Positions 2,081 through 11,600 of a stretch of DNA of 64,000 nt are shown in pieces. Each line of letters opens with the position of its first letter. Position 1 is the first letter of the stretch. A program made the position numbers and the translations under genes. The notes below the pieces were generated by a model. The model ran no database searches. It saw only the letters and a list, made by a program, of their open reading frames with translations, and was not told the DNA's origin. This stretch comes from a virus (taxonomy: Duplodnaviria > Caudoviricetes): IMG/VR virus record IMGVR_UViG_3300025018_000145, positions 7,908 through 71,907 of that record; one strand, written 5' to 3'.

Positions 2081-2289
2081 ATACCGCCATCTTTAGTTTT
2101 ATCATTCAACATTTCATCATGTAGCGCGTTGTATTTAGTAGATATAACACTGATTAGTTTTTCGCATTCGTCGCAAATTTCAATTCGTACGCTATCCGAT
2201 AAAACAACGATCGCATTATTCCCACTATCAGTAATTGTATTTTCGCATAAATTACATTTCAGTTTCGACGATTTTTTTCGCTTAAACAT
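2077..2289 (-). CDS. small C4 zinc-finger protein
   Basis: CNLC...CDEC; translationally coupled to neighbouring genes. Confidence 0.6.
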   Translation of the reverse strand: MFKRKKSSKLKCNLCENTITDSGNNAIVVLSDSVRIEICDECEKLISVISTKYNALHDEMLNDKTKDGGI

Positions 2290-2902
2290 CTAGCCCCTCC
2301 ATTGTTCGGATGAGATATTGTATACGCATAACATCGATCGCTACGTCATGCCGTGGATCATGATGAATAAACTCAGATTCGTTTACGTTCGGCGGAAAGA
2401 ATCGATCATCGATATTATGCCCAAATGTTAGTCCAAGAATGAAACTACGAACGTCACGAATAGCACGAAAATGAATCGGTTCGGATTGATCCGTTGCATG
2501 AATTAATGACGTGAGCAGTGGTGGATCGAACGTATTGCCGCGTGTAAATACATACTTACAATCATATGCACGAATTTCATCGTTAAAAATCGTGAATAGT
2601 TGTTTAATCGACACATCGTCTGACGATCTCTTTAACTGCTTTCGCGCAGTTGGTGGTTGTTCTTGCCACCAATCTAGTACACGCTGCTCAATCTTTCGAC
2701 CATATACATTTACTTGTTCTAATATATCGAACTTATGAAACGAAGAAACATTAACTAATTCATTGAAATTATATGGACTATCAGACGTAAATCTATCTGA
2801 TTCGACTTTAACTGTCGCGAGATTTACAATCGGCGCAGACTCGATATTTGTACCAAGCGTTTCAAAATCAAAGAATAACATTTTCATAATAATATCACTC
2901 AA
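2282..2902 (-). CDS. dexA: DEDDh 3'-5' exonuclease (DexA-like)
   Basis: FFDFETLG (ExoI), RGNTFD (ExoII) and HDPRHDVAID (ExoIII). Confidence 0.8.
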   Translation of the reverse strand: MSDIIMKMLFFDFETLGTNIESAPIVNLATVKVESDRFTSDSPYNFNELVNVSSFHKFDILEQVNVYGRKIEQRVLDWWQEQPPTARKQLKRSSDDVSIKQLFTIFNDEIRAYDCKYVFTRGNTFDPPLLTSLIHATDQSEPIHFRAIRDVRSFILGLTFGHNIDDRFFPPNVNESEFIHHDPRHDVAIDVMRIQYLIRTMEGLDV

Positions 2903-3851: not shown

Positions 3852-4529
3852 TTAACTGAATGTAGACTTCGACTCAACGCTAACCCAATATGTAATTGCT
3901 GATGATTCAAATCGACAAATACCGGCAGACGAGATCGATACACTGTAGTCATTTGGTACGATCTTAAGATGGTCAGTTCGAATAATTGCTGTGAAAGGTT
4001 TGCTATCTGTTTCACCAACAACGATATCGTAATCGTTTGAACTGGGATTTGATGTATCTGTTCCACGAAGAACAAGATTGCCGTCCTCAACAGTGATCAC
4101 CAACTCAGGCAACGACATAACACCAAGAGCCTTCATTATATCCTGATATTGATTTGTCTTTAAGTTAAACGACACGTCAATACTTGGCATATTCAAATCA
4201 TGATCAGGCGGTGTAACGAAAGTTGATGTATCTGCATACACATACTTCACTTTACGTCGAGCATCGCCATGAATAGTCATCGATGATGCACCGATTTCGT
4301 AACGCGGGTTCTTCATCAGAGAAACTACACCTAGAAAACGATGCAGTTCATAAATTGCAAAGTCAGATGGGATCGTTTCATCCAGTGTTGCTTTTGCTAG
4401 CACTGCTTTATTTGGCGCCATTGTGCGAAGAATATTACCTTGCTTAAACGCAAGTGACGGATTAATCGTTGAAAAATTCTTCAATACTGCGATCGTGTTT
4501 TCATTCATGTTCATATATACATTCTCCAT
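3852..4529 (-). CDS. gp45: sliding clamp gp45
   Basis: TIAVLKNFSTINPS...FAIYELHRFLGV; directly upstream of gp44. Confidence 0.95.
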   Translation of the reverse strand: MENVYMNMNENTIAVLKNFSTINPSLAFKQGNILRTMAPNKAVLAKATLDETIPSDFAIYELHRFLGVVSLMKNPRYEIGASSMTIHGDARRKVKYVYADTSTFVTPPDHDLNMPSIDVSFNLKTNQYQDIMKALGVMSLPELVITVEDGNLVLRGTDTSNPSSNDYDIVVGETDSKPFTAIIRTDHLKIVPNDYSVSISSAGICRFESSAITYWVSVESKSTFS

Positions 4530-4535
4530 TATATT

Positions 4536-5510
4536 TTATTTACGTTTCCTGCCAAGCTTCTTTGTGTCTGCTGTTGCCGATGCTCCAACCGATGCTAAGG
4601 CCGCAAGCGATCCACCAAAAATATACGAACCTACATGCTTGAGCTGCATCCATGGGCATAACCACACCTTCATACCCATCTTTTGTACATTATAACAAAA
4701 CATATAGTCTTCTGACAAATACCGGTTTGAATATGCGGAAGTTAAACCATTCTTCTTATCGCGTAAAAATTCAATGATATCGTCGTGTGTAGCGTTAGGC
4801 GTCTGCTTTACGAATGCTTCAACCTCAGCAACCATATTCTGAGATTTATCGTCGATGATAGCGTCAAAATACGCCATGATTTCGCGTGAACCATCGAAAT
4901 TCTCGGTGCGAACATGGTCTGGCTTATATAACATCTGTGGGAAGTGTTTATTGTATGCCTCAAAAACCTTTCGTTGAATCAACATAAACCCAGTACCAGA
5001 TTCCATTACCTCAACTGGTTGATTAAGCGGAATTGTTGATAATCCCTTCTTTGGGTTGAATACATAATCGCCAACGAAGTTTTCGAGAATATTTGGATCT
5101 TTATCTGCTACACCTTTATCAACAGCTTGCTTAATCTTTTCCCATGAGATAGTCTTCTTTGGATATGGCCCGCATAGAACATTATAATCTTCATTCATTG
5201 AAGATAGTCCTAACAACGAAATAACGTCATGCGCGTCAAAGCCAATATCAGAGTCAATAAACATTAGATGAGTACAATCAGATCTCATAAACTCATCAGC
5301 ACAATAGTTGCGCGCGCGTGTAACCAAAGACTCGTTGAATAGAAAATAGAACTGCATCTTAATACCATAACGTACGCAGAGATTCGTTAGATCTGAAAGC
5401 GATCTAGCAAACATTCCAGCACATTGCCCGCCGTACATCGGTACTGCCAAAAATAATTTCTGTTGCTTTAATACTTCAACTGGTATTTTTGTTTCCATGT
5501 TATACTCCAT
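4536..5510 (-). CDS. GT-A fold (GT2-like) glycosyltransferase-like protein
   Basis: LFLAVPMYGG, ESLVTRARN, DxD motif MFIDSDI, GTGFMLI, SEDYMFC and LKHVG. Confidence 0.65.
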   Translation of the reverse strand: MEYNMETKIPVEVLKQQKLFLAVPMYGGQCAGMFARSLSDLTNLCVRYGIKMQFYFLFNESLVTRARNYCADEFMRSDCTHLMFIDSDIGFDAHDVISLLGLSSMNEDYNVLCGPYPKKTISWEKIKQAVDKGVADKDPNILENFVGDYVFNPKKGLSTIPLNQPVEVMESGTGFMLIQRKVFEAYNKHFPQMLYKPDHVRTENFDGSREIMAYFDAIIDDKSQNMVAEVEAFVKQTPNATHDDIIEFLRDKKNGLTSAYSNRYLSEDYMFCYNVQKMGMKVWLCPWMQLKHVGSYIFGGSLAALASVGASATADTKKLGRKRK

Positions 5511-5516
5511 TGTATT

Positions 5517-6725
5517 CTATTGAATGAAAGATGTCAAATCGTGTCGATCTGTTTCTACGTGTTCAATTGTTTTCTTAAAATTATTCTGTTTAACATACGA
5601 TGAGCCAGAATCAAGTAATTGTCCACGAATAAACAATTCGATCTCAGTACACATATCGCGTGCCGTGCATACTGGTACGTTCTGTGCAATATGATTAATA
5701 CAACTGCGCCCGCCTAGTAACTCAAAATCATCAGGAAAGCCCATCATATATAATGCTTCACGTACAGTTAAAGAGCGATCATATTCTGGGTGAATAGTGT
5801 CGGCCATATTTCGACCGATCACGGCATTCATTACCTCATTAAAAACATGTGTTGAACCATCCCATACACCAAGTCCCTGATCATACTTTTTAATCGCATG
5901 AGCTGCATATTTGGCACCGCGAGTGTGGTCGATCGTTTCAAACCAATCAAGAGCTTCGTCTAAACTAAAATGCTTAATAACATATTGGAGTGTAGTGATA
6001 ATCTTTGATTCTTTTAGTAATTCACGCGGATCACGATTTGTTTTATATTTGATGAACTGATAGTAATGCTCGTTACCGATTTCGTTATTAATGATGATAT
6101 CATGATGCTTAGCATTCGCATTCACATTCTTAAGATAATCATGAAAATTCAAACGTGATCGATCATACCAATTCATAATAGGTGCAGTCTTACTCTTCCA
6201 AGCAATAGCAAAACAACGCTGACGATTCTGTGGAATACCATGGTACATTGTCGATGTTTTGTATAATGTTAGACTGTAACCACGAGCCTTAGCAATTTCA
6301 TATAAGCGCTGTGCAACGGCCTGTCCTTTATTCGTATATAGCGCAGGTGCATTCTCGACAATAACAGCTTTTGCATTAAAGCGATCAATACCTTCTTCGA
6401 AAACACGATACATCCACTCATTCTTTTGACAACCGGCACCTTTCACCGCGGCGGTCTTCCCCGTGTTTAACTGAGATAAAGCAGCGCATGGTGGAGTACC
6501 AACAATGACGTCGATTTCATTACTATAATCTGGGTCTTTATCAAGATGTATATATGGTACATTCAGATTGTGAATTTCATTAATATAATTCACATAATGG
6601 CTATCGTTCTTCGTAAAATCCGAATATGATATGATTGCTGTTGGTTTTGAATTGAACGCAGCGGCGGCCCCAAGAGGAAATCCACCAATAAGTGGAATGA
6701 GAGGTGCCCATTTTAACTGATTCAT
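5517..6725 (-). CDS. C5-cytosine DNA methyltransferase-fold protein with atypical SAM-binding motif I
   Basis: Motif IV GTPPC, motif VI VENAP, motif VIII PQNRQR, motif IX LTVREA..MGFPDDF and motif X AQNVP. Motif I reads LIPLIGG instead of LFxGxGG. Confidence 0.85.
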   Translation of the reverse strand: MNQLKWAPLIPLIGGFPLGAAAAFNSKPTAIISYSDFTKNDSHYVNYINEIHNLNVPYIHLDKDPDYSNEIDVIVGTPPCAALSQLNTGKTAAVKGAGCQKNEWMYRVFEEGIDRFNAKAVIVENAPALYTNKGQAVAQRLYEIAKARGYSLTLYKTSTMYHGIPQNRQRCFAIAWKSKTAPIMNWYDRSRLNFHDYLKNVNANAKHHDIIINNEIGNEHYYQFIKYKTNRDPRELLKESKIITTLQYVIKHFSLDEALDWFETIDHTRGAKYAAHAIKKYDQGLGVWDGSTHVFNEVMNAVIGRNMADTIHPEYDRSLTVREALYMMGFPDDFELLGGRSCINHIAQNVPVCTARDMCTEIELFIRGQLLDSGSSYVKQNNFKKTIEHVETDRHDLTSFIQ

Positions 6726-6743
6726 TATATATCCTATATTTCA

Positions 6744-7997
6744 CTAAGAAAAGAAAGACTCGAGTGTTGTTATTTCACTCTTTCTGTAATTATTTATACA
6801 CGGCTCTGAATAGGTACTATCGATAGAAGTCATAATCGATTTATTAATAAATGAGCCATCATATAGATCATCTGTTAGATACTTATTTGATAAGTAACGA
6901 ATATGATGAAGATATAGTACGTCATCATTGTAGATTGACGCAATACGATCATGCAGCTGTTCTGGTGTCGACGGTCTATAAAACGAATCGAGGTTTGTAT
7001 GATTTTGTGTGTCATATGTTGGATGAAGAAATGGAATGACACCAGCCTGAATCATCTCGATATACTTCGACGTTACCCACCCCGGCGCAATCGGAATGAT
7101 GAATGTTGAACGAACATTTCCAAATCTTCTTTGAATTTCACTTACATGAACCGAACCACGAAAACGCGCATCGCTGTTTATTATATTCTCATTCCATTGG
7201 CCGTAGATATCAATATTCTCATCGTGCTTAAGAACCCATTCGTTCAGTATATTATAACGTGATGGTTTGCCTTCATTGAGAGCGATCATTGCGTGAACAT
7301 TACGATCTGCAACCGATGTAGTTGGTTTATTATAATCCAAACAGAACATCTTTTCAACACCAGAGTATGTAGACTTTACATAATCCGTTATTAAATCTTG
7401 ATCATCAAATGATTTGAAATATTTCTTAGCATATTCAAAATCAAACTGCCCAATCGACACATTCGGGCAGCGAGTAATGTCACGGGATTGATTAAGCTTA
7501 TAGCGAGGATCGTTTATGATTTCGATGAACGGTATATTCGTACGATTAATCCATTCAATCATAGGCGTCGAATATAATTTGGTCATATCGATGACTGCAG
7601 CAGTGAGATCACGATTATTAACCTGCATAGTACGATTTGGTATCGTGGCGGACCCAATTTGCCCAATCATAAAGATTCCATAATCAATATGAATATCGTT
7701 GATTTCAAAATAACGAATCGCGTGTAGATAAAAATTCTCGCCCAATTCCGGTGATCGCGGAATTTTTACGCCGTCCCAAATATCAATGACATTGTCATAT
7801 GGGAATAGCGAATTCTTATCAACATCGGATAATCGACTATAATCGGATCGCCCAATAATATAAAATTTCTTATCAGGATTTCTATTCGCGAGCGCACGCA
7901 GAACACATGATGGTTCATTATCACCACCAATAGGTGAATAGTTTTTAGTTGAAAATTTAATTGATTTTCCTATCTTCGCAAACACAAAATTTTTCAT
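6744..7997 (-). CDS. GT-B DNA glycosyltransferase, T4 beta-glucosyltransferase-like
   Basis: The C-terminal half (TSKYIEMIQAGVIPFLHPTYDTQ...EQLHDRIASIYNDDVL) aligns by eye with the T4 BGT C-terminus (TLRVWETMASDAVMLIDEEFDTK...ELIDRVNELKHSDVL). Lies in an operon with the gp42 homologue. Confidence 0.7.
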   Translation of the reverse strand: MKNFVFAKIGKSIKFSTKNYSPIGGDNEPSCVLRALANRNPDKKFYIIGRSDYSRLSDVDKNSLFPYDNVIDIWDGVKIPRSPELGENFYLHAIRYFEINDIHIDYGIFMIGQIGSATIPNRTMQVNNRDLTAAVIDMTKLYSTPMIEWINRTNIPFIEIINDPRYKLNQSRDITRCPNVSIGQFDFEYAKKYFKSFDDQDLITDYVKSTYSGVEKMFCLDYNKPTTSVADRNVHAMIALNEGKPSRYNILNEWVLKHDENIDIYGQWNENIINSDARFRGSVHVSEIQRRFGNVRSTFIIPIAPGWVTSKYIEMIQAGVIPFLHPTYDTQNHTNLDSFYRPSTPEQLHDRIASIYNDDVLYLHHIRYLSNKYLTDDLYDGSFINKSIMTSIDSTYSEPCINNYRKSEITTLESFFS

Positions 7998-8446
7998 TAT
8001 GAATTCCTTATTCTCTCGCGTAAATCGCTCGACGAAAATGAATGTCGTCTCCTATTATAATGAATTGGGCACATCCCAATACCAGTATGATCCGTTCCTT
8101 TATATTCTTCACCTACAATACGTATGTCGGGATTAATTGTTAAAATCATATCAACCAAATCCTTCTCAGTTTCAAAAGGAATGATTTCATCAACATATCG
8201 GCATGACGACAACTGCACGTATCTCTCAAATGACGACTGAATTGGTTTATTCTTCTTACCCGGGCGATCAACTGTTGGATCAATCAACAAACCAACTATC
8301 AGATAATCACATAGTGTTTTTGCTTCCTGTAGCATGACGATGTGACCTGAATGAAAAAGATCAAATGTGCTACACGTAAAGCCAACCTTAACTTCGGTTA
8401 TATCCATGCCGAGTTTTTTAGCAATTGATTTCTTATCAAGAAACAT
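7997..8446 (-). CDS. cytidylyltransferase (TagD/ethanolamine-phosphate CT-like, HxGH family)
   Basis: GFTCSTFDLFHSGH, CRYVDEII and SFSSSDLRERI. Start refined to MFLDKK, overlapping the upstream stop. Confidence 0.9.
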   Translation of the reverse strand: MFLDKKSIAKKLGMDITEVKVGFTCSTFDLFHSGHIVMLQEAKTLCDYLIVGLLIDPTVDRPGKKNKPIQSSFERYVQLSSCRYVDEIIPFETEKDLVDMILTINPDIRIVGEEYKGTDHTGIGMCPIHYNRRRHSFSSSDLRERIRNS

Positions 8447-9449
8447 TACGTATACACTCAACGATGAATTGTTTATTTGGGTGATACTTATAAACTCGAA
8501 GCAATTCCGCGCGAACAAAGGCATTTAACTGATTCATATCCAATTCATTATATTGTATCATATATCCACGTATTCTGTTAATCGTTTTTAACCTATAACG
8601 CTGTAGATGTAACGAAGCAATAAATTTTGCGATATCCAGTTCAGTACACCCAAATACGTCTGGTATTGGATCAATTAAAAACAGTCTCATATCTGATGTG
8701 AATAGCATATTCATGACACTAAAATCGCCATGCGCGAATGATGGTGTTAGGTTATACTTTAATAAGTCAGTATATATCGATTCAAACTCGATGTTCCGTG
8801 ATAATTTATAATGATCATGAATTCGATTTATGTATGTATCATATGTAGCAGTATTCATCGGCATCAATTGCTTCATATGTACTAGAGATTCCTGAATCAA
8901 ACCCAATGCAATAGGTTCACGTATATACAATGTATGTGTGTTATGATGTATGTAATCCATTACGATTGTATCACCAATCACGCTATTAACATTAGGAACA
9001 TTTAACCAGTCGCGACTATATTCGTACCACGAACGTACGATATGCGCCCGAGGGTCTTGTTTATATACGAGAGTTCCGTCTGTATAGATATCAGACCCAG
9101 ACAAACCACCTTCAAGTTCATTAAAAGTAGTTTCGATAAACTCGTCTGGTCTTAGCGCTTTATCATCAACATAATATGTCGCAAGTGGTTTTTCAAACGA
9201 AAGTGTATGATATAGAACATCATGTTTCTTAAGCCACGATTCAATACTATCTCGATATTTAAGAGATGCTTCTTCACGTGTCTTACATGATATCGACCCG
9301 CGCGCAGTATAGATATCGATTTGCCACTTCCCACTATTGTACATTTCATTGATTTTGGTGATTAGTTGCGTGTTTGGTTCGGCATTATCCCAATCACGAT
9401 CGCGCGTAAATGCAATGGTGTCATCGAAATCAAATATCACTCGTCTCAT
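8436..9449 (-). CDS. HAD phosphatase (EcbF/BcbF-like) fused to APH/choline-kinase-like domain
   Basis: N-terminal DFDDT, YTAR, KP and YVDDKA HAD motifs. C-terminal GGLSGS loop, HGDFSVMN (Brenner motif) and LIDP. Confidence 0.85.
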   Translation of the reverse strand: MRRVIFDFDDTIAFTRDRDWDNAEPNTQLITKINEMYNSGKWQIDIYTARGSISCKTREEASLKYRDSIESWLKKHDVLYHTLSFEKPLATYYVDDKALRPDEFIETTFNELEGGLSGSDIYTDGTLVYKQDPRAHIVRSWYEYSRDWLNVPNVNSVIGDTIVMDYIHHNTHTLYIREPIALGLIQESLVHMKQLMPMNTATYDTYINRIHDHYKLSRNIEFESIYTDLLKYNLTPSFAHGDFSVMNMLFTSDMRLFLIDPIPDVFGCTELDIAKFIASLHLQRYRLKTINRIRGYMIQYNELDMNQLNAFVRAELLRVYKYHPNKQFIVECIRNVS

Positions 9450-9450
9450 A

Positions 9451-10218
9451 TTATTTAATACCATATTGACTATTTGGGTATAGTTGATTATATTCTTTTT
9501 TGGTGATTGTTGTCAACCCAGTTTTGCGATAATGGTCAACTAGATAGAATTGCGAAGGATAAACATGAAGATTCATAACTTGCCAGTGAATATCACCAAC
9601 TAACGATTCAGGCATCTCTGGAATTGATATACCATGATATATCAATTCCGCAGCTAATCGTTTTTGTACATGTAATTGCCAAGCATAATCATTTCGATAG
9701 CCAGCCCAACAATCATTGCTTCTCATTTGAACGACACAATCCAATCTACCGTCATTAATATAATATGAAACAGCATTTGTGCAAATGAAATCATTCTTGC
9801 CATTTTCATAATACTCAATCCAAATGCTCGGGCGAGTATAAATCATTTGTGCTCTACGCGAACTCGGATTATTAACGAGTTCGCGAACTACCTGATTGAA
9901 CTGACAATATGAACGATCACCGTAAATCAAATAACCATAATTTGAGTTTATTTCGCCGTGTTCATTTGCAGTGTTAATCCACGCCTTCGGTATTATCTCC
10001 ACAGGAAGATCATAAATATTCGTAGATTGCATATTGTACCATGCAATCTCGCTATCTATATATGCGCGATTTACTTCACCGAAAATATGATCGTCGTCTG
10101 CTAAAAACGAAGCGGCGAGAATCACTAAGTTAGTATCTGCAGGTGAACCGTTCTTCTCAAAGTCATTTAATAATGTAACAAATCGTCCGCGAATATCTTG
10201 TACATTTAAATATGTCAT
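9451..10218 (-). CDS. gp42: dCMP hydroxymethylase (T4 gp42 homologue, thymidylate synthase fold)
   Basis: GEINSNYG, SRRAQMIYTRPS, catalytic DFICTN, MRSND..GYRNDYAWQ (cytosine-specifying Asp) and LHVY..FYLVDH are near-identical to T4 gp42 motifs. Confidence 0.93.
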   Translation of the reverse strand: MTYLNVQDIRGRFVTLLNDFEKNGSPADTNLVILAASFLADDDHIFGEVNRAYIDSEIAWYNMQSTNIYDLPVEIIPKAWINTANEHGEINSNYGYLIYGDRSYCQFNQVVRELVNNPSSRRAQMIYTRPSIWIEYYENGKNDFICTNAVSYYINDGRLDCVVQMRSNDCWAGYRNDYAWQLHVQKRLAAELIYHGISIPEMPESLVGDIHWQVMNLHVYPSQFYLVDHYRKTGLTTITKKEYNQLYPNSQYGIK

Positions 10219-10310
10219 ATTATAGTCTCATCTTGTAAAAGATTCAAAAAATATCCAAAATGAACCCATCAACCTTTTCTTTAGGGAAATCCACAGTTTC
10301 GTTAAAAGAC

Positions 10311-10673
10311 TCAGCGAGTGGATGTAGATTTCAAATCTCGTTCGCAGTTGAAGATATCACGAGATGAATCCTGGCCATCCATTTCACCACGTGAATATGC
10401 AACGAAGAAAGACAGATAATTGATTGCATCTTTCGCGGAATCTTCAATCGATTCGAAGTTCGGTGAATCGCATCCATTTTTAACTGCATCCAATAAAGAA
10501 TAGATACGAATCAATTTCTGATATGCCATGTCGATAATTGTAGAACAACCACGCGGATAGTGATCAGCCTGTTTAATACGTGACTGACTATTTTGATAAT
10601 CTGCGCCTTTCTTTTCCTGAATTTCGGCGCATTCCTTTAAAACTCTAATTGAACATTTATCAGTATTCATCAT
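10311..10673 (-). CDS. nucleotide-modification-associated all-alpha protein (DUF1599/Nmad1-like, MazG-related)
   Basis: KKGADY...EDSAKDAINY pattern; located within the modification cluster. Confidence 0.55.
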   Translation of the reverse strand: MMNTDKCSIRVLKECAEIQEKKGADYQNSQSRIKQADHYPRGCSTIIDMAYQKLIRIYSLLDAVKNGCDSPNFESIEDSAKDAINYLSFFVAYSRGEMDGQDSSRDIFNCERDLKSTSTR

Positions 10674-11103
10674 TATACTCTGAACGAATCATTATGTTTG
10701 GTAATATATCACCGTGATTATCCCTATGGTCGGGACCAATCCAACCGCTTGGCTTAATTAAATCTGGCAGACCTAATGCATTTGGTCGTGTTGATTTAAT
10801 ACCAACCTCTTTACTTAAATTTGCGGCCAATACTTGCTTCCACGCTGTATCTGGATTAACATTAAACACGTCGAGAGTACCAATTGCGATAACACACAAG
10901 TCAATTAATCCATCAATAAGTTCTTCGACGTCGTTATCTCTATATGCATTCATAGTTTCGTTGTATTCTTCTGTGAGAAAATTCATACGAAATCTAAGAA
11001 ACGCATCCATCTTTTTACGGTCGTTACGATTCTTATTGACCCAATCATGAACACCATATTTATGATGCATTCGATTTATGTCTTCGCACCAGCAATTTGT
11101 CAT
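10660..11103 (-). CDS. MazG/PRA-PH-like NTP pyrophosphatase (probable dCTPase/dUTPase)
   Basis: EEYNE...ELIDGLIDL acidic motifs, plus ANLSK and DLIKP..W. Confidence 0.8.
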   Translation of the reverse strand: MTNCWCEDINRMHHKYGVHDWVNKNRNDRKKMDAFLRFRMNFLTEEYNETMNAYRDNDVEELIDGLIDLCVIAIGTLDVFNVNPDTAWKQVLAANLSKEVGIKSTRPNALGLPDLIKPSGWIGPDHRDNHGDILPNIMIRSEYNDEY

Positions 11104-11600
11104 AGACTCACCTTTCTCCGTTTACGATTAACGATGTCTTTCTGTTTCTTTGCACGATTTAGATGAATACGCAAAGCCTTATCTGTAAAATGTATACCTT
11201 GGAGATGATCATATTCATGTTGAAATATTCGTGCAGATACGCCATTAAATACGCGTGTAATGGTTTCACCGTCTACATCCTGATAACGCACGCGTATTGT
11301 ACTCGATCTTTTAATTTTAACAAATAGCAACGGATATGTCAAACAACCTTCTTCCATATATACCATATCGTCGGATGCTGTCGTTATAATCGGATTGAAG
11401 CATGTAATCACATCATCTATTCCCATGACAAATACTCGATGATTTAATCTGATTTGATTTGCAGATAACCCAACACCGTTGTTTTCTTTCATACATTTAA
11501 TTAGCGTATTGGATATATCGCGCGCATTTAATGATGTGTCACTAAAGTCAAATTCAGGTAAAACCGTACTAAGTAATTCGTGATGATGTGAAACTAACAC
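11100..11600 (-). CDS. def: peptide deformylase
   Basis: GVGLSANQ, EGCLT and QHEYDHLQG motifs. Confidence 0.97.
   Translation of the reverse strand: MLVSHHHELLSTVLPEFDFSDTSLNARDISNTLIKCMKENNGVGLSANQIRLNHRVFVMGIDDVITCFNPIITTASDDMVYMEEGCLTYPLLFVKIKRSSTIRVRYQDVDGETITRVFNGVSARIFQHEYDHLQGIHFTDKALRIHLNRAKKQKDIVNRKRRKVSL

What the first reader, a model, noticed from the sequence alone, without database searches (positions are those of the whole stretch)
4536..11103. Candidate new cytosine-hypermodification pathway: gp42 + BGT-like + CDP-donor enzymes + atypical C5-MTase
Seen: one co-oriented run of MazG-like pyrophosphatase, Nmad1-like protein, dCMP hydroxymethylase (Asp in RNDYAW), HAD/kinase fusion, cytidylyltransferase, BGT-like GT-B, C5-MTase-fold protein and GT-A, ending at gp45. 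Known: T4 uses gp42, a dCTPase and UDP-glucose transferases, and RB69-type phages add genes that make their own sugar donor. Inference: this phage replaces C with 5hmC (or 5-hydroxy-C) and decorates it with a self-made CDP-activated group, possibly in several steps. I do not recognise this enzyme combination, especially with a C5-MTase and no TET/JBP, as a characterised pathway. It would act as an anti-restriction/anti-CRISPR shield.
Basis: partly seen in the sequence, partly recalled or inferred. Interest (0 to 1): 0.9.

Follow-up and report, generated by a model that had tools for sequence, protein, structure and literature searches.

The report
Phage glycosyl-hydroxymethylcytosine DNA modification cassette
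An uncultured T4-like phage carries a compact gene set that most likely replaces cytosine with 5-hydroxymethylcytosine and decorates it with a sugar whose donor it makes itself; most parts have characterised relatives, but a conserved, virus-restricted methyltransferase-like enzyme in the set has no explained job.

Summary
The thymidylate-synthase homologue is a T4 gp42-type dCMP hydroxymethylase, so it should make 5hmC rather than 5-hydroxy-C. The HAD and kinase domains are homologous to the AfhF and AfhE sugar-donor enzymes of RB69-type phages. The GT-B model matches T4 beta-glucosyltransferase best. The trio of HAD/APH fusion, cytidylyltransferase and BGT-like GT-B is not unprecedented: a metavirome cluster with that architecture was reconstituted in E. 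coli and put one or two heptoses on 5hmC (Pyle et al., bioRxiv 2023). "CDP-donor" is not established; the donor could be ADP- or CDP-sugar, and heptose is my leading guess.

Two things are new. Here 5hmC comes from a pre-replicative gp42-type enzyme and not from MT+TET. The C5-methyltransferase-fold protein is also unexplained: it belongs to a large family seen almost only in viral sequence, it sat beside a dCMP-type TS homologue in every informative locus, and its catalytic motifs are invariant while its SAM motifs are degraded. The GT-A gene is probably a syntenic neighbour and not specific to the cassette. This scan noted the same MTase-like family earlier in another genome. Verdict: a new variant of a known kind, with one puzzling component.

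The parts
10660..11103 (-). MazG-like all-alpha NTP pyrophosphatase. Inferred to be the dCTPase that clears dCTP and feeds dCMP to the hydroxymethylase.
   Evidence: PF01503 and phrog_671. A weak PDB match to the MazG-like DR2231. Its phage homologues sit in Rhizobium, Xanthomonas/Stenotrophomonas and Microbacterium phages; that several of these lineages replace cytosine is from the literature or my memory, not checked record by record. Substrate not tested.
10311..10673 (-). DUF1599/Nmad1-like small helical protein. It is fused to the MazG-like domain in some phages. Role unknown.
   Evidence: phrog_1485. In phrog_18404 it matches profile positions 171-255, while the MazG-like protein matches positions 53-139 of the same family. 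Atlas structural neighbour carries DUF1599, TM 0.90.
9451..10218 (-). gp42-type dCMP hydroxymethylase (5hm-dCMP synthase).
   Evidence: PDB 1b49 (T4 gp42) at E 9e-60. It has Asp at ThyA-177 (RND), Asp at ThyA-143 (DFIC) and keeps Asp at ThyA-169 (RSND). The 5hoC-type phage VR5 reads RSQN at the last site.
8436..9464 (-). Bifunctional HAD phosphatase (about residues 1-118) plus APH/choline-kinase-like sugar-phosphate kinase (about residues 130-342).
   Evidence: HAD part: PDB 9iqw at 1.1e-13, 1xpj at 9.6e-9, TIGR01689. Kinase part: hhalign to the C-terminal kinase domain of AfhE-like proteins, 93.9%, E 1.6e-7, with the HGD..N/IDP motifs aligned.
7997..8524 (-). HxGH-type nucleotidyltransferase of the cytidylyltransferase superfamily, which would make the NDP-sugar. 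The real start is probably at 8446 (149 aa).
   Evidence: PF01467. rfaE_dom_II at 1e-20, TagD at 2.2e-16. PDB ECT 3elb and TagD 1coz. Gene calls on identical contigs give 136-149 aa. 75% identical to the copy in the unrelated PolIII-alpha phage locus L008.
6744..7997 (-). BGT-like GT-B DNA glycosyltransferase, inferred to glycosylate 5hmC in DNA.
   Evidence: AF2 pLDDT 89.9. T4 BGT takes Foldseek ranks 1-6 (E 1.5e-8) and VIA Z 22.1. Homologues sit in the TS/HAD clusters of phage XG4 and Enterococcus phage 9183.
5517..6725 (-). C5-cytosine-methyltransferase-fold protein from a family seen almost only in viral sequence. Function unresolved.
   Evidence: PF00145. AF2 pLDDT 90.1, Z about 24 to DNMT1, HaeIII and HhaI. 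The family has 433 clusters. Invariant PC, ENAPAL, PQxRxR and AQNxP motifs; motif I reads LIGG. Always directly downstream of the GT-B in relatives.
4536..5510 (-). Putative GT-A-type glycosyltransferase (phrog_1574). It may add a second sugar to DNA or may be unrelated to the cassette.
   Evidence: phrog_1574 at 1.9e-62 and phrog_34859 at 6.8e-5. DSD and EDY motifs in the sequence. Present next to the gp45 clamp gene in phiM12 and DLP6 without the cassette.
3852..4529 (-). gp45 sliding clamp. This is the downstream boundary and not part of the pathway.
   Evidence: PF09116, PF02916, phrog_223.
11100..11600 (-). Peptide deformylase. This is the upstream neighbour and not part of the pathway.
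   Evidence: PF01327 at 3.2e-35. Also adjacent in Stenotrophomonas phage DLP6.

Best explanation
This is a DNA cytosine-hypermodification cassette inserted between the gp46/gp47 and gp45/gp44 replication genes of an uncultured T4-like phage.

Inferred steps:
1. The MazG-like enzyme hydrolyses dCTP.
2. The gp42-type enzyme converts dCMP to 5-hydroxymethyl-dCMP. This is phosphorylated and incorporated, so the genome carries 5hmC in place of C.
3. The kinase domain of the HAD-kinase fusion phosphorylates the anomeric position of a host sugar phosphate. The HAD domain then removes the distal phosphate, leaving a sugar-1-phosphate.
4. The HxGH nucleotidyltransferase turns that into an NDP-sugar. 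ADP- or CDP-heptose is my leading guess, by analogy with the ADP-heptose route and with the reconstituted contig-53 trio.
5. The BGT-like GT-B flips out 5hmC and transfers the sugar, possibly more than once, giving 5-(glycosyloxymethyl)cytosine.

The GT-A may add a further sugar. The C5-MTase-fold enzyme is a conserved partner whose reaction is unknown. The product would shield the DNA from restriction enzymes and CRISPR nucleases.

What is shown here is homology, fold and conserved synteny. Every chemical step is inferred.
For: - TS homologue: T4 gp42 at E 9e-60 with gp42 active-site residues. It keeps D169, unlike the 5hoC synthase of VR5 (rule from PMC13326640).
- A separate phrog_85 'thymidylate synthase' gene lies upstream. 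It does not match PF00303 and is probably ThyX, which would leave the gp42-type enzyme free for dCMP.
- The HAD domain matches 9iqw and 1xpj. 1xpj is the structural match reported for the AfhF-type phosphatases of DLP3 and RB69.
- The kinase domain is homologous to the AfhE C-terminal domain.
- The nucleotidyltransferase scores best to RfaE domain II.
- The GT-B is closest to T4 BGT.
- The same trio architecture made Hep- and di-Hep-5hmC in E. coli.
- The order p120, hydroxymethylase, (dCMP deaminase), donor module, GT-B, MTase, GT-A, gp45 recurs in about 80 IMG/VR loci. Two alternative donor modules occupy the same slot.
- Clusters of TS, HAD, nucleotidyltransferase and a GT-B homologue also occur in Pseudoalteromonas phage XG4 and Enterococcus phage 9183.
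Against: - There are no chemical data for this phage or any close relative; it is known only from metagenomes.
- The sugar and the nucleotide are guesses. Orthologous GT-Bs at about 50% identity sit next to an AfhE-type (UDP-arabinose-like) module in other relatives.
- No SIS isomerase is encoded in the contig or in two near-complete relatives, so the sugar phosphate must come from the host.
- dCTPase activity of the MazG-like protein is untested, and it did not match T4 gene 56 in tblastn.
- The model gives no role to the most conserved unusual gene, the MTase-like protein.
Confidence: 0.7

Rival explanations
1. Same cassette, but the C5-MTase-fold enzyme is an ordinary SAM-dependent 5mC methyltransferase acting as a back-up. 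It would methylate the few unmodified cytosines left after replication, or cytosines in a short motif, so that no bare C is exposed to host or phage nucleases.
For: - The full C5-MTase fold is present, including the N-terminal Rossmann half (Z about 24, model residues 1-370).
- The catalytic Cys, the ENx Glu and the QxRxR arginines are invariant. The GG of motif I, an invariant Phe37 and the motif X Asn are kept. Most T4-like members keep an acidic residue at position 35 or 36.
- This is the simplest chemistry.
Against: - In motif I the Phe and the first Gly are replaced (I/V-P-L-I-G-G).
- The motif II acid is absent in the PolIII-alpha-phage members and shifted by one residue in the window protein. 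The motif III Asp is not conserved.
- The family profile aligns to canonical MTases mainly from motif IV onward.
- Only one hit, on a 3.4-kb MAG contig, turned up in 185,579 prokaryote species genomes, so this is not an R-M type enzyme.
- If replacement by 5hmC is complete, there is almost no substrate.
Confidence: 0.35
2. The C5-MTase-fold enzyme is a second-stage hypermodification enzyme. It would attack C6 of 5hmC or glycosyl-5hmC in DNA, or use a non-SAM donor on C, and so produce a further derivative. The final base would then be something other than simple glycosyl-5hmC.
For: - It is strictly linked to TS homologues carrying Asp at ThyA-177. This held in every informative locus: T4-like phages, two PolIII-alpha phage types, XG4 and cyanophage S-TIM5.
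- It is adjacent to a DNA GT of either of two unrelated families, BGT-like or AGT-like.
- The SAM motifs are degraded while the catalytic motifs are invariant.
- The family was seen almost only in viral sequence.
- There is precedent for phage C5-MTase homologues that use another cofactor: CmoX with carboxy-SAM (PMC12783734).
- From my own knowledge, not checked here: C5-MTases can add or remove C5 hydroxymethyl groups and couple thiols to 5hmC in vitro.
Against: - No direct evidence.
- No partner gene for a new donor was identified.
- It is not CmoX-type: the position of CmoX Arg350 is Asn, and no CmoA is present in near-complete relatives.
- S-TIM5 has the pair in the 19-kb stretch examined with no annotated glycosyltransferase or donor genes, so any role cannot depend on sugar.
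Confidence: 0.25
3. The sugar genes act on something other than DNA, such as host LPS or capsule or virion proteins, and the phage DNA carries only unglycosylated 5hmC.
For: - The HAD domain hits 'capsule biosynthesis phosphatase' TIGR01689, and the nucleotidyltransferase resembles LPS heptose and teichoic-acid enzymes.
- GT-A homologues occur in phages with no cassette nearby.
Against: - The GT-B is structurally closest to T4 BGT, AGT and the HY126 DNA GT.
- It is always wedged between the hydroxymethylase and a DNA-MTase-fold gene inside the replication module.
- The same architecture was shown to act on 5hmC in DNA.
Confidence: 0.07

Closest known systems
Metavirome 'contig 53' subclass III cluster (Pyle, Lund, O'Toole, Saleh; bioRxiv 10.1101/2023.12.21.572611)
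   Same: It has a HAD-like/APH-like bifunctional enzyme, a cytidylyltransferase and a GT-B with T4 beta-GT architecture. All three were needed to put one or two heptoses on 5hmC in E. coli. A C5-MT gene is also part of such clusters.
   Different: There, 5hmC is made after replication by a C5-MT plus a 5mYOX/TET, only at the MT's motif. Here a gp42-type enzyme makes 5hmC before replication and no TET was detected. The sugar made in the natural host is unknown.
T4 gp42 / gp56 / beta-glucosyltransferase system
   Same: It uses a dCMP hydroxymethylase (E 9e-60, same active-site residues), a MazG-type pyrophosphatase step and a BGT-fold DNA glycosyltransferase (Z 22), encoded in the replication-gene region.
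   Different: T4 uses host UDP-glucose and encodes no donor pathway and no C5-MTase-fold gene. The GT-B here is only about 13% identical to BGT and is not detected by Pfam.
RB69 / DLP3 / HY126 arabinosyl-5-hydroxycytosine pathway (Afh genes; PMC13326640)
   Same: It has an AfhF-type HAD phosphatase and an AfhE-type anomeric kinase, following the logic sugar-P to sugar-1,n-bisP to sugar-1-P to NDP-sugar to GT-B on DNA. Many relatives of this window carry the AfhE-type fusion in the same slot.
   Different: The base is 5hoC, made by a D169N flavin-dependent TS homologue; here D169 is kept. The nucleotidyltransferase is a GlmU/MurU-type domain fused to the kinase; here it is a separate HxGH cytidylyltransferase-type enzyme, and the kinase is fused to the HAD domain. 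RB69-type phages encode an arabinose-5-P isomerase; none was found here.
CmoX, the phage DNA cytosine C5-carboxymethyltransferase (PMC12783734, PDB 8yf3)
   Same: It is a phage C5-MTase-fold enzyme with an xPPC catalytic motif that has left plain SAM methylation. The fold matches at Z 22.9.
   Different: CmoX has Arg350 for the carboxylate and travels with CmoA. This family has Asn at that site (AQN) and no CmoA. phmmer gives E only 0.009.
Phage C5-MT + TET (5mYOX) + GT clusters (Burke et al., PMC8256090)
   Same: A C5-MT gene is clustered with DNA glycosyltransferases that act on 5hmC.
   Different: These clusters require a TET/JBP dioxygenase and no TS homologue. Here the reverse holds.

Membership tests
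T4-type dCMP hydroxymethylase (5hm-dCMP synthase branch of the TS superfamily) | Catalytic Cys, and Asp in place of ThyA Asn177 (dCMP specificity) | tested here: met
   DFICTN and RNDYAW align to T4 gp42 DFMCTN and RNDYAW.
T4-type dCMP hydroxymethylase (5hm-dCMP synthase branch of the TS superfamily) | Acidic residue at the ThyA Leu143 position (admits water) | tested here: met
   Asp three residues before the catalytic Cys (D-F-I-C), as in T4 (D-F-M-C).
T4-type dCMP hydroxymethylase (5hm-dCMP synthase branch of the TS superfamily) | Produces 5hm-dCMP from dCMP and methylene-THF | not testable with these tools
   This needs expression with a dNMP kinase and LC-MS.
5-hydroxy-dCMP synthase (RB69 gp48 type) | Asn in place of ThyA Asp169 (D169N signature; PMC13326640) | tested here: not met
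   The window reads M-R-S-N-D, so Asp is kept. The 5hoC-type phage VR5 reads M-R-S-Q-N. PDB 9iqu/9iqc, labelled only 'thymidylate synthase', match at just 1.8e-6, against 9e-60 for T4 gp42.
SAM-dependent DNA cytosine-5 methyltransferase (PF00145) | Overall fold with a catalytic domain and a target-recognition domain | tested here: met
   PF00145 at 8.8e-24. Z 24.5 to DNMT1, 24.4 to M.HaeIII and 23.3 to M.HhaI over residues 1-370.
SAM-dependent DNA cytosine-5 methyltransferase (PF00145) | Catalytic motifs IV (PC), VI (ENV) and VIII (QxRxR) | tested here: met
   P79-C80, E124-N125 and Q166-x-R168-x-R170 are invariant in 31 sequences. The Gln of PCQ is Ala, and ENV reads ENA.
SAM-dependent DNA cytosine-5 methyltransferase (PF00145) | SAM-binding motifs I (FxGxGG), II (acidic residue) and III (Asp) | tested here: inconclusive
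   Motif I reads I-P-L-I-G-G, where prophage MTase 3g7u has F-S-G-V-G-G. The acid at position 35 or 36 is present in most T4-like members but absent in five distant ones. The motif III Asp is variable. Phe37 is invariant. No ligand modelling was possible.
SAM-dependent DNA cytosine-5 methyltransferase (PF00145) | Transfers methyl from SAM to C5 of cytosine in DNA | not testable with these tools
   A biochemical assay is needed.
CmoX DNA cytosine C5-carboxymethyltransferase | SPPC motif plus Arg at the M.HhaI Asn304 position, with CmoA co-encoded | tested here: not met
   TPPC is present, but motif X is A-Q-N with no Arg. No CmoA (TIGR00740) was found in five related viral records, two of them at least 91% complete.
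T4 BGT-like GT-B DNA glycosyltransferase | Two-Rossmann GT-B fold closest to BGT | tested here: met
   Foldseek ranks 1-6 are BGT. VIA Z 22.1, against 18.9 for the best non-BGT chain.
T4 BGT-like GT-B DNA glycosyltransferase | Catalytic Asp and base-flipping contacts equivalent to those of BGT; activity on 5hmC DNA | not tested
   No residue-level structural alignment or coordinates were available. Activity needs an assay.
Afh-type NDP-sugar donor pathway | AfhF-type HAD phosphatase | tested here: met
   PDB 9iqw (deposited as 'capsule biosynthesis protein') at E 1.1e-13 and 1xpj at 9.6e-9. 1xpj is the reported structural match of the DLP3 and RB69 phosphatases.
Afh-type NDP-sugar donor pathway | AfhE-type anomeric kinase domain | tested here: met
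   hhalign of the fusion family against the AfhE-like family: 93.9%, E 1.6e-7, with the catalytic HGD..N and DP motifs aligned.
Afh-type NDP-sugar donor pathway | GlmU/MurU-type NTP_transferase domain and a phage arabinose-5-P isomerase | tested here: not met
   The nucleotidyltransferase is PF01467-type and not PF00483. No SIS domain was found in the contig or in two near-complete relatives.
Subclass III 5hmC-heptosylation cluster (contig 53 type) | HAD/APH bifunctional enzyme plus cytidylyltransferase plus BGT-like GT-B | tested here: met
   The architecture matches the published description. Orthology to the contig-53 proteins themselves was not tested.
Subclass III 5hmC-heptosylation cluster (contig 53 type) | 5hmC supplied by a C5-MT plus a 5mYOX/TET | tested here: inconclusive
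   No Tet_JBP match in the 72-kb contig or in five related records. The family rang in none of the control genomes and the window's genome is only 40% complete. A gp42-type enzyme is present instead.

The most novel reading that the evidence does not exclude
The LIGG/PCAALSQLNT/ENAPAL/AQNVP family of C5-MTase-fold proteins is a new class of DNA-cytosine enzyme that works on genomes already substituted at C5. It would use covalent C6 catalysis on 5hmC or glycosyl-5hmC, or a non-SAM donor, to make a modified base not yet described. This would explain why it always travels with dCMP-specific TS homologues and was seen almost only in viral sequence.
Probability: 0.25. Interest if true: 0.85.

Novelty: new variant of a known kind. 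Interest (0 to 1): 0.6.

Why it matters
Hypermodified cytosines decide which restriction, CRISPR and type IV systems can stop a phage, and they have supplied tools for epigenome sequencing. This cassette is not a one-off. The MTase-like family has 433 protein clusters and 411 IMG/VR loci, and the GT-B family has 332 clusters, from marine, groundwater and spring metagenomes. The cassette joins the T4-style pre-replicative route to 5hmC with a donor module so far shown only in a TET-based cluster. It also exposes a strict and unexplained partnership between dCMP-type TS homologues and a C5-MTase-fold enzyme. Solving that enzyme's reaction would either reveal a fail-safe methylation layer in genomes that replace cytosine, or a new DNA base chemistry.

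Tried and rejected
- Nucleotide search of the phage collection with the 6.6-kb region found no match. The phage is known only from metagenomes.
- Complex prediction for GT-B plus the MTase-like protein returned no verdict (score 0.00). It is not used as evidence either way.
- Sequencing runs: all holders are assembled contigs from aquifer, spring and groundwater metagenomes, and no RNA holder is listed. No raw reads were available, so no read-level signal of modification could be examined.
- I considered a Kennedy/teichoic-type reading, with a CDP-alcohol donor and phosphodiester transfer by a TagF-like GT-B. I set it aside because the HAD and kinase domains are Afh-type sugar enzymes, the GT-B is closest to BGT and not TagF, related clusters carry a GalE-like SDR epimerase, and the same architecture gave heptosides.
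- 5-hydroxycytosine reading: rejected on the D169 residue.
- CmoX reading: rejected (no Arg, no CmoA).
- I looked for a TET-type cluster carrying the same trio through the gut-phage contig MT837767. That contig also has a TS homologue and PolIII-alpha but no MT or TET. The contig-53 sequences themselves could not be obtained.
- Pfam and NCBIfam gave nothing for the GT-B, the GT-A, the 222-aa gene of relatives or the 368-aa XG4 gene. The PDB sequence search gave nothing for the GT-A.
- NCBIfam on the SDR epimerases of related clusters was generic (GalE-like) and did not identify the nucleotide.

Full report
**Source.** The window is bases 7908-71907 of a 71.9-kb IMG/VR viral contig judged about 40% complete. 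The same phage, with identical proteins, sits on a 126-kb ENA contig, a JGI contig and Logan assemblies. Its DNA is held by aquifer, groundwater and spring metagenome runs from about 20 studies. The neighbours are T4-type replication genes: a UvsW-like helicase, the gp55 late sigma factor, gp47/gp46, then the cassette, then gp45, gp44, an Rv2179c-like exonuclease, gp62 and RegA. There is no nucleotide-level match in the phage collection.

**Observation.**
- The 147-aa protein is MazG-like (PF01503, phrog_671).
- The 120-aa protein is DUF1599-like by Atlas features and structure (TM 0.90). It matches the C-terminal half of a PHROG whose N-terminal half matches the MazG-like protein.
- The 255-aa protein matches T4 dCMP hydroxymethylase at E 9e-60, with the same active-site segments.
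- The 342-aa protein is a fusion of a HAD phosphatase (PDB 9iqw at 1.1e-13; 1xpj; TIGR01689) and an APH/choline-kinase-like kinase.
- The next protein is an HxGH cytidylyltransferase-superfamily enzyme (PF01467). Its true start is probably the Met at 8446.
- The 417-aa protein has no Pfam hit, but its AF2 model (pLDDT 89.9) is closest to T4 beta-glucosyltransferase: Foldseek ranks 1-6, and VIA Z 22.1 against 18.9 for the next family. T4 AGT scores 18.1 and the HY126 DNA GT 17.5.
- The 402-aa protein is a complete C5-MTase fold (PF00145; pLDDT 90.1; Z about 24 to DNMT1, HaeIII and HhaI).
- The 324-aa protein is phrog_1574, with weak glycosyltransferase similarity and DSD and EDY motifs.

**Which base.** A 2026 NAR paper (PMC13326640) showed that RB69-type TS homologues make 5-hydroxy-dCMP, and that Asn at the ThyA-169 position marks that activity. 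The window enzyme reads M-R-S-N-D like T4 gp42, so Asp is kept. It also has Asp at the 143 and 177 positions. The TS homologue of the arabinosyl-5hoC-type phage VR5, fetched here, reads M-R-S-Q-N. The enzyme is therefore predicted to make 5hm-dCMP. A second gene upstream of the window is called thymidylate synthase by phrog_85 but does not match PF00303. It is probably ThyX, which would leave the gp42-type enzyme free for dCMP. Homologues of the MazG-like protein are found in Rhizobium (Pootjesviridae-type), Xanthomonas/Stenotrophomonas and Microbacterium phages. Several of those lineages are reported or recalled to replace cytosine, which fits a dCTPase role, but activity is untested.

**Which donor.** The HAD domain matches 9iqw and 1xpj; 1xpj is the structural match reported for the AfhF-type phosphatases of DLP3 and RB69. 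A profile of the fusion family aligns to the C-terminal kinase domain of AfhE-like proteins from related loci at 93.9% probability (E 1.6e-7), with the catalytic motifs in register. The logic is therefore that of the Afh and ADP-heptose routes: anomeric phosphorylation of a sugar phosphate, removal of the distal phosphate, then nucleotidyl transfer. The nucleotidyltransferase belongs to a different superfamily from AfhE's. Its best NCBIfam score is to RfaE domain II, the ADP-heptose enzyme (74 bits), then TagD. Its best PDB matches are ECT and TagD. No SIS isomerase is encoded in the contig or in two relatives that are at least 91% complete, so the starting sugar phosphate must be a host metabolite.

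The decisive literature link is Pyle et al. (bioRxiv 10.1101/2023.12.21.572611). Metavirome 'contig 53' encodes a HAD-like/APH-like bifunctional enzyme, a cytidylyltransferase and a GT-B with T4 beta-GT architecture. All three were required to form mono- and di-heptosyl-5hmC in E. coli. That paper also reports that BGT-like GT-Bs are more often ThyS-associated than 5mYOX-associated, and that they lie near gp45/clamp genes, APH phosphotransferases and methyltransferases. Heptose is therefore my leading guess for the sugar, at about even odds. 'CDP' is unproven.

**Conservation.** Searching IMG/VR with the MTase-like protein and then with its family alignment gave 411 relatives. In the 80 best loci the order is p120, hydroxymethylase, dCMP deaminase, donor module, GT-B, MTase-like, (exonuclease), GT-A, gp45, gp44. 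The GT-B lies directly upstream of the MTase-like gene wherever the flank exists. Two donor modules alternate in the same slot. One is the HAD-kinase fusion plus cytidylyltransferase, as in the window. The other is a 222-aa gene, an AfhE-type NTP_transferase-kinase fusion and a stand-alone HAD, as in RB69.

More distant members (34-36% identity) lie in PolIII-alpha-type phages.
- L008 and L009 have TS, DUF6378, dUTPase, HAD-kinase, a cytidylyltransferase (71-75% identical to the window's), an AGT-like GT, the MTase-like gene and a GalE-like SDR.
- L012 has PolIII-alpha, the MTase-like gene, TS, DUF6378 and dUTPase, with the SDR further on.
- Pseudoalteromonas phage XG4 has TS, HAD, an AfhE-like gene, GT-B, a 368-aa gene and the MTase-like gene.
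- Cyanophage S-TIM5 has the MTase-like gene 2.4 kb from a TS homologue.
- Enterococcus phage 9183 has TS, dUTPase, HAD, an NDP-sugar pyrophosphorylase-like gene and a GT-B homologue, with no MTase-like match in the stretch examined.

Every TS homologue in these loci has Asp at ThyA-177 and Asp at ThyA-169.

**The MTase-like enzyme.** Across 31 sequences spanning 34-100% identity, the following are invariant: LIGG...G, P-C followed by (A)(A/G)LS-LNT, ENAP-L, HG-PQ-R-R-F, NA--GR, HP---R and AQN-P. Against canonical enzymes, motif I has lost its Phe and first Gly; prophage MTase 3g7u reads F-S-G-V-G-G there. The motif II acid is present in most T4-like members, shifted by one residue in the window protein and absent in the five PolIII-alpha-phage members. 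The motif III Asp is variable. An aromatic residue, Phe37, is invariant. The family profile aligns to solved MTases mainly from motif IV onward. It is not CmoX: motif X keeps Asn where CmoX has Arg350, and no CmoA is encoded in near-complete relatives. A pattern scan of 185,579 prokaryote species genomes found one hit, on a 3.4-kb MAG contig, so the family appears restricted to viral sequence. No Tet_JBP domain was found in the contig or in five related records. That search has no positive control, so it is weak evidence. I cannot tell whether the protein still binds SAM. I rank three readings:
- a back-up SAM-dependent methylase for residual C: 0.35;
- an enzyme acting on 5hmC-type bases or using another donor: 0.25;
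- something else for the remainder.

**The GT-A.** Homologues at 52-59% identity lie between gp46 and gp45 in Sinorhizobium phage phiM12, and just upstream of the clamp gene in Stenotrophomonas phage DLP6, with no TS/GT-B/MTase genes in the stretches examined. The cassette therefore appears to have been inserted upstream of a pre-existing gene. The GT-A's R...DSD...EDY pattern resembles the JGT-like DNA GT-A signature described by Pyle et al.. That is a reading by eye, so a role as a second DNA glycosyltransferase remains possible but unproven.

**Verdict.** It overstates the novelty, because the donor-plus-GT trio has been reconstituted and the Afh enzymes are characterised. Its 'CDP' label is unsupported. 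The combination with a gp42-type enzyme, the interchangeable donor modules and, above all, the virus-restricted MTase-like partner are uncharacterised. This scan had already flagged the same MTase-like family in another genome and the SAM-motif erosion on this window. I checked the motif claims on a 31-sequence alignment and found them partly right.

Noticed in passing
L014:1215-3736 (contig bases upstream of the window start): The phage encodes a nicotinamide phosphoribosyltransferase (phrog_448) and a NadR-like cytidyltransferase/Nudix protein (phrog_395). This is an NAD+ salvage pair of the kind known from KVP40-type vibriophages (that comparison is from memory).
   Followed up: no
L014:5333-6091: A second 'thymidylate synthase' (phrog_85, 252 aa) does not match PF00303 and is probably ThyX. 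It would give the phage a separate dTMP route beside the gp42-type enzyme.
   Followed up: partly
window 11100-11600: A peptide deformylase gene (PF01327 at 3.2e-35) lies directly upstream of the cassette. Stenotrophomonas phage DLP6 has one at the equivalent place.
   Followed up: no
related loci L018-L097 (e.g. L024:3286-5740 versus L028:4086-5736): Two non-orthologous sugar-donor modules alternate at the same position upstream of orthologous GT-B genes. One is the HAD-kinase fusion plus an HxGH nucleotidyltransferase. The other is an AfhE-type NTP_transferase-kinase plus a stand-alone HAD and a 222-aa gene of unknown family.
   Followed up: partly
L008:6155-6610 versus window 7997-8446: The nucleotidyltransferase is 75% identical between this T4-like phage and an unrelated PolIII-alpha-type phage. 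The neighbouring HAD-kinase is only 33% identical. This suggests recent horizontal exchange of this one gene.
   Followed up: no
L007:2548-3786: One relative carries a beta-ketoacyl-ACP synthase gene (PF00109 and PF02801) inside the cassette, between the hydroxymethylase and the deaminase.
   Followed up: no
window 2282-2902: A DEDD-type exonuclease (phrog_255; Rv2179c-like) sits between gp44 and gp62. In many relatives a homologue lies between the MTase-like gene and the GT-A.
   Followed up: no
window 4536-11103 (runs X1-X23): Near-identical DNA of this phage recurs in aquifer, groundwater, cold-spring and hot-spring metagenomes from about 20 studies. Relatives at about 60% identity include Tara and GOS marine sequences.
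   Followed up: no
L012:15636-16313: A PolIII-alpha-type phage carrying the MTase-like/TS pair also encodes a Mn/Fe superoxide dismutase-like protein.
   Followed up: no
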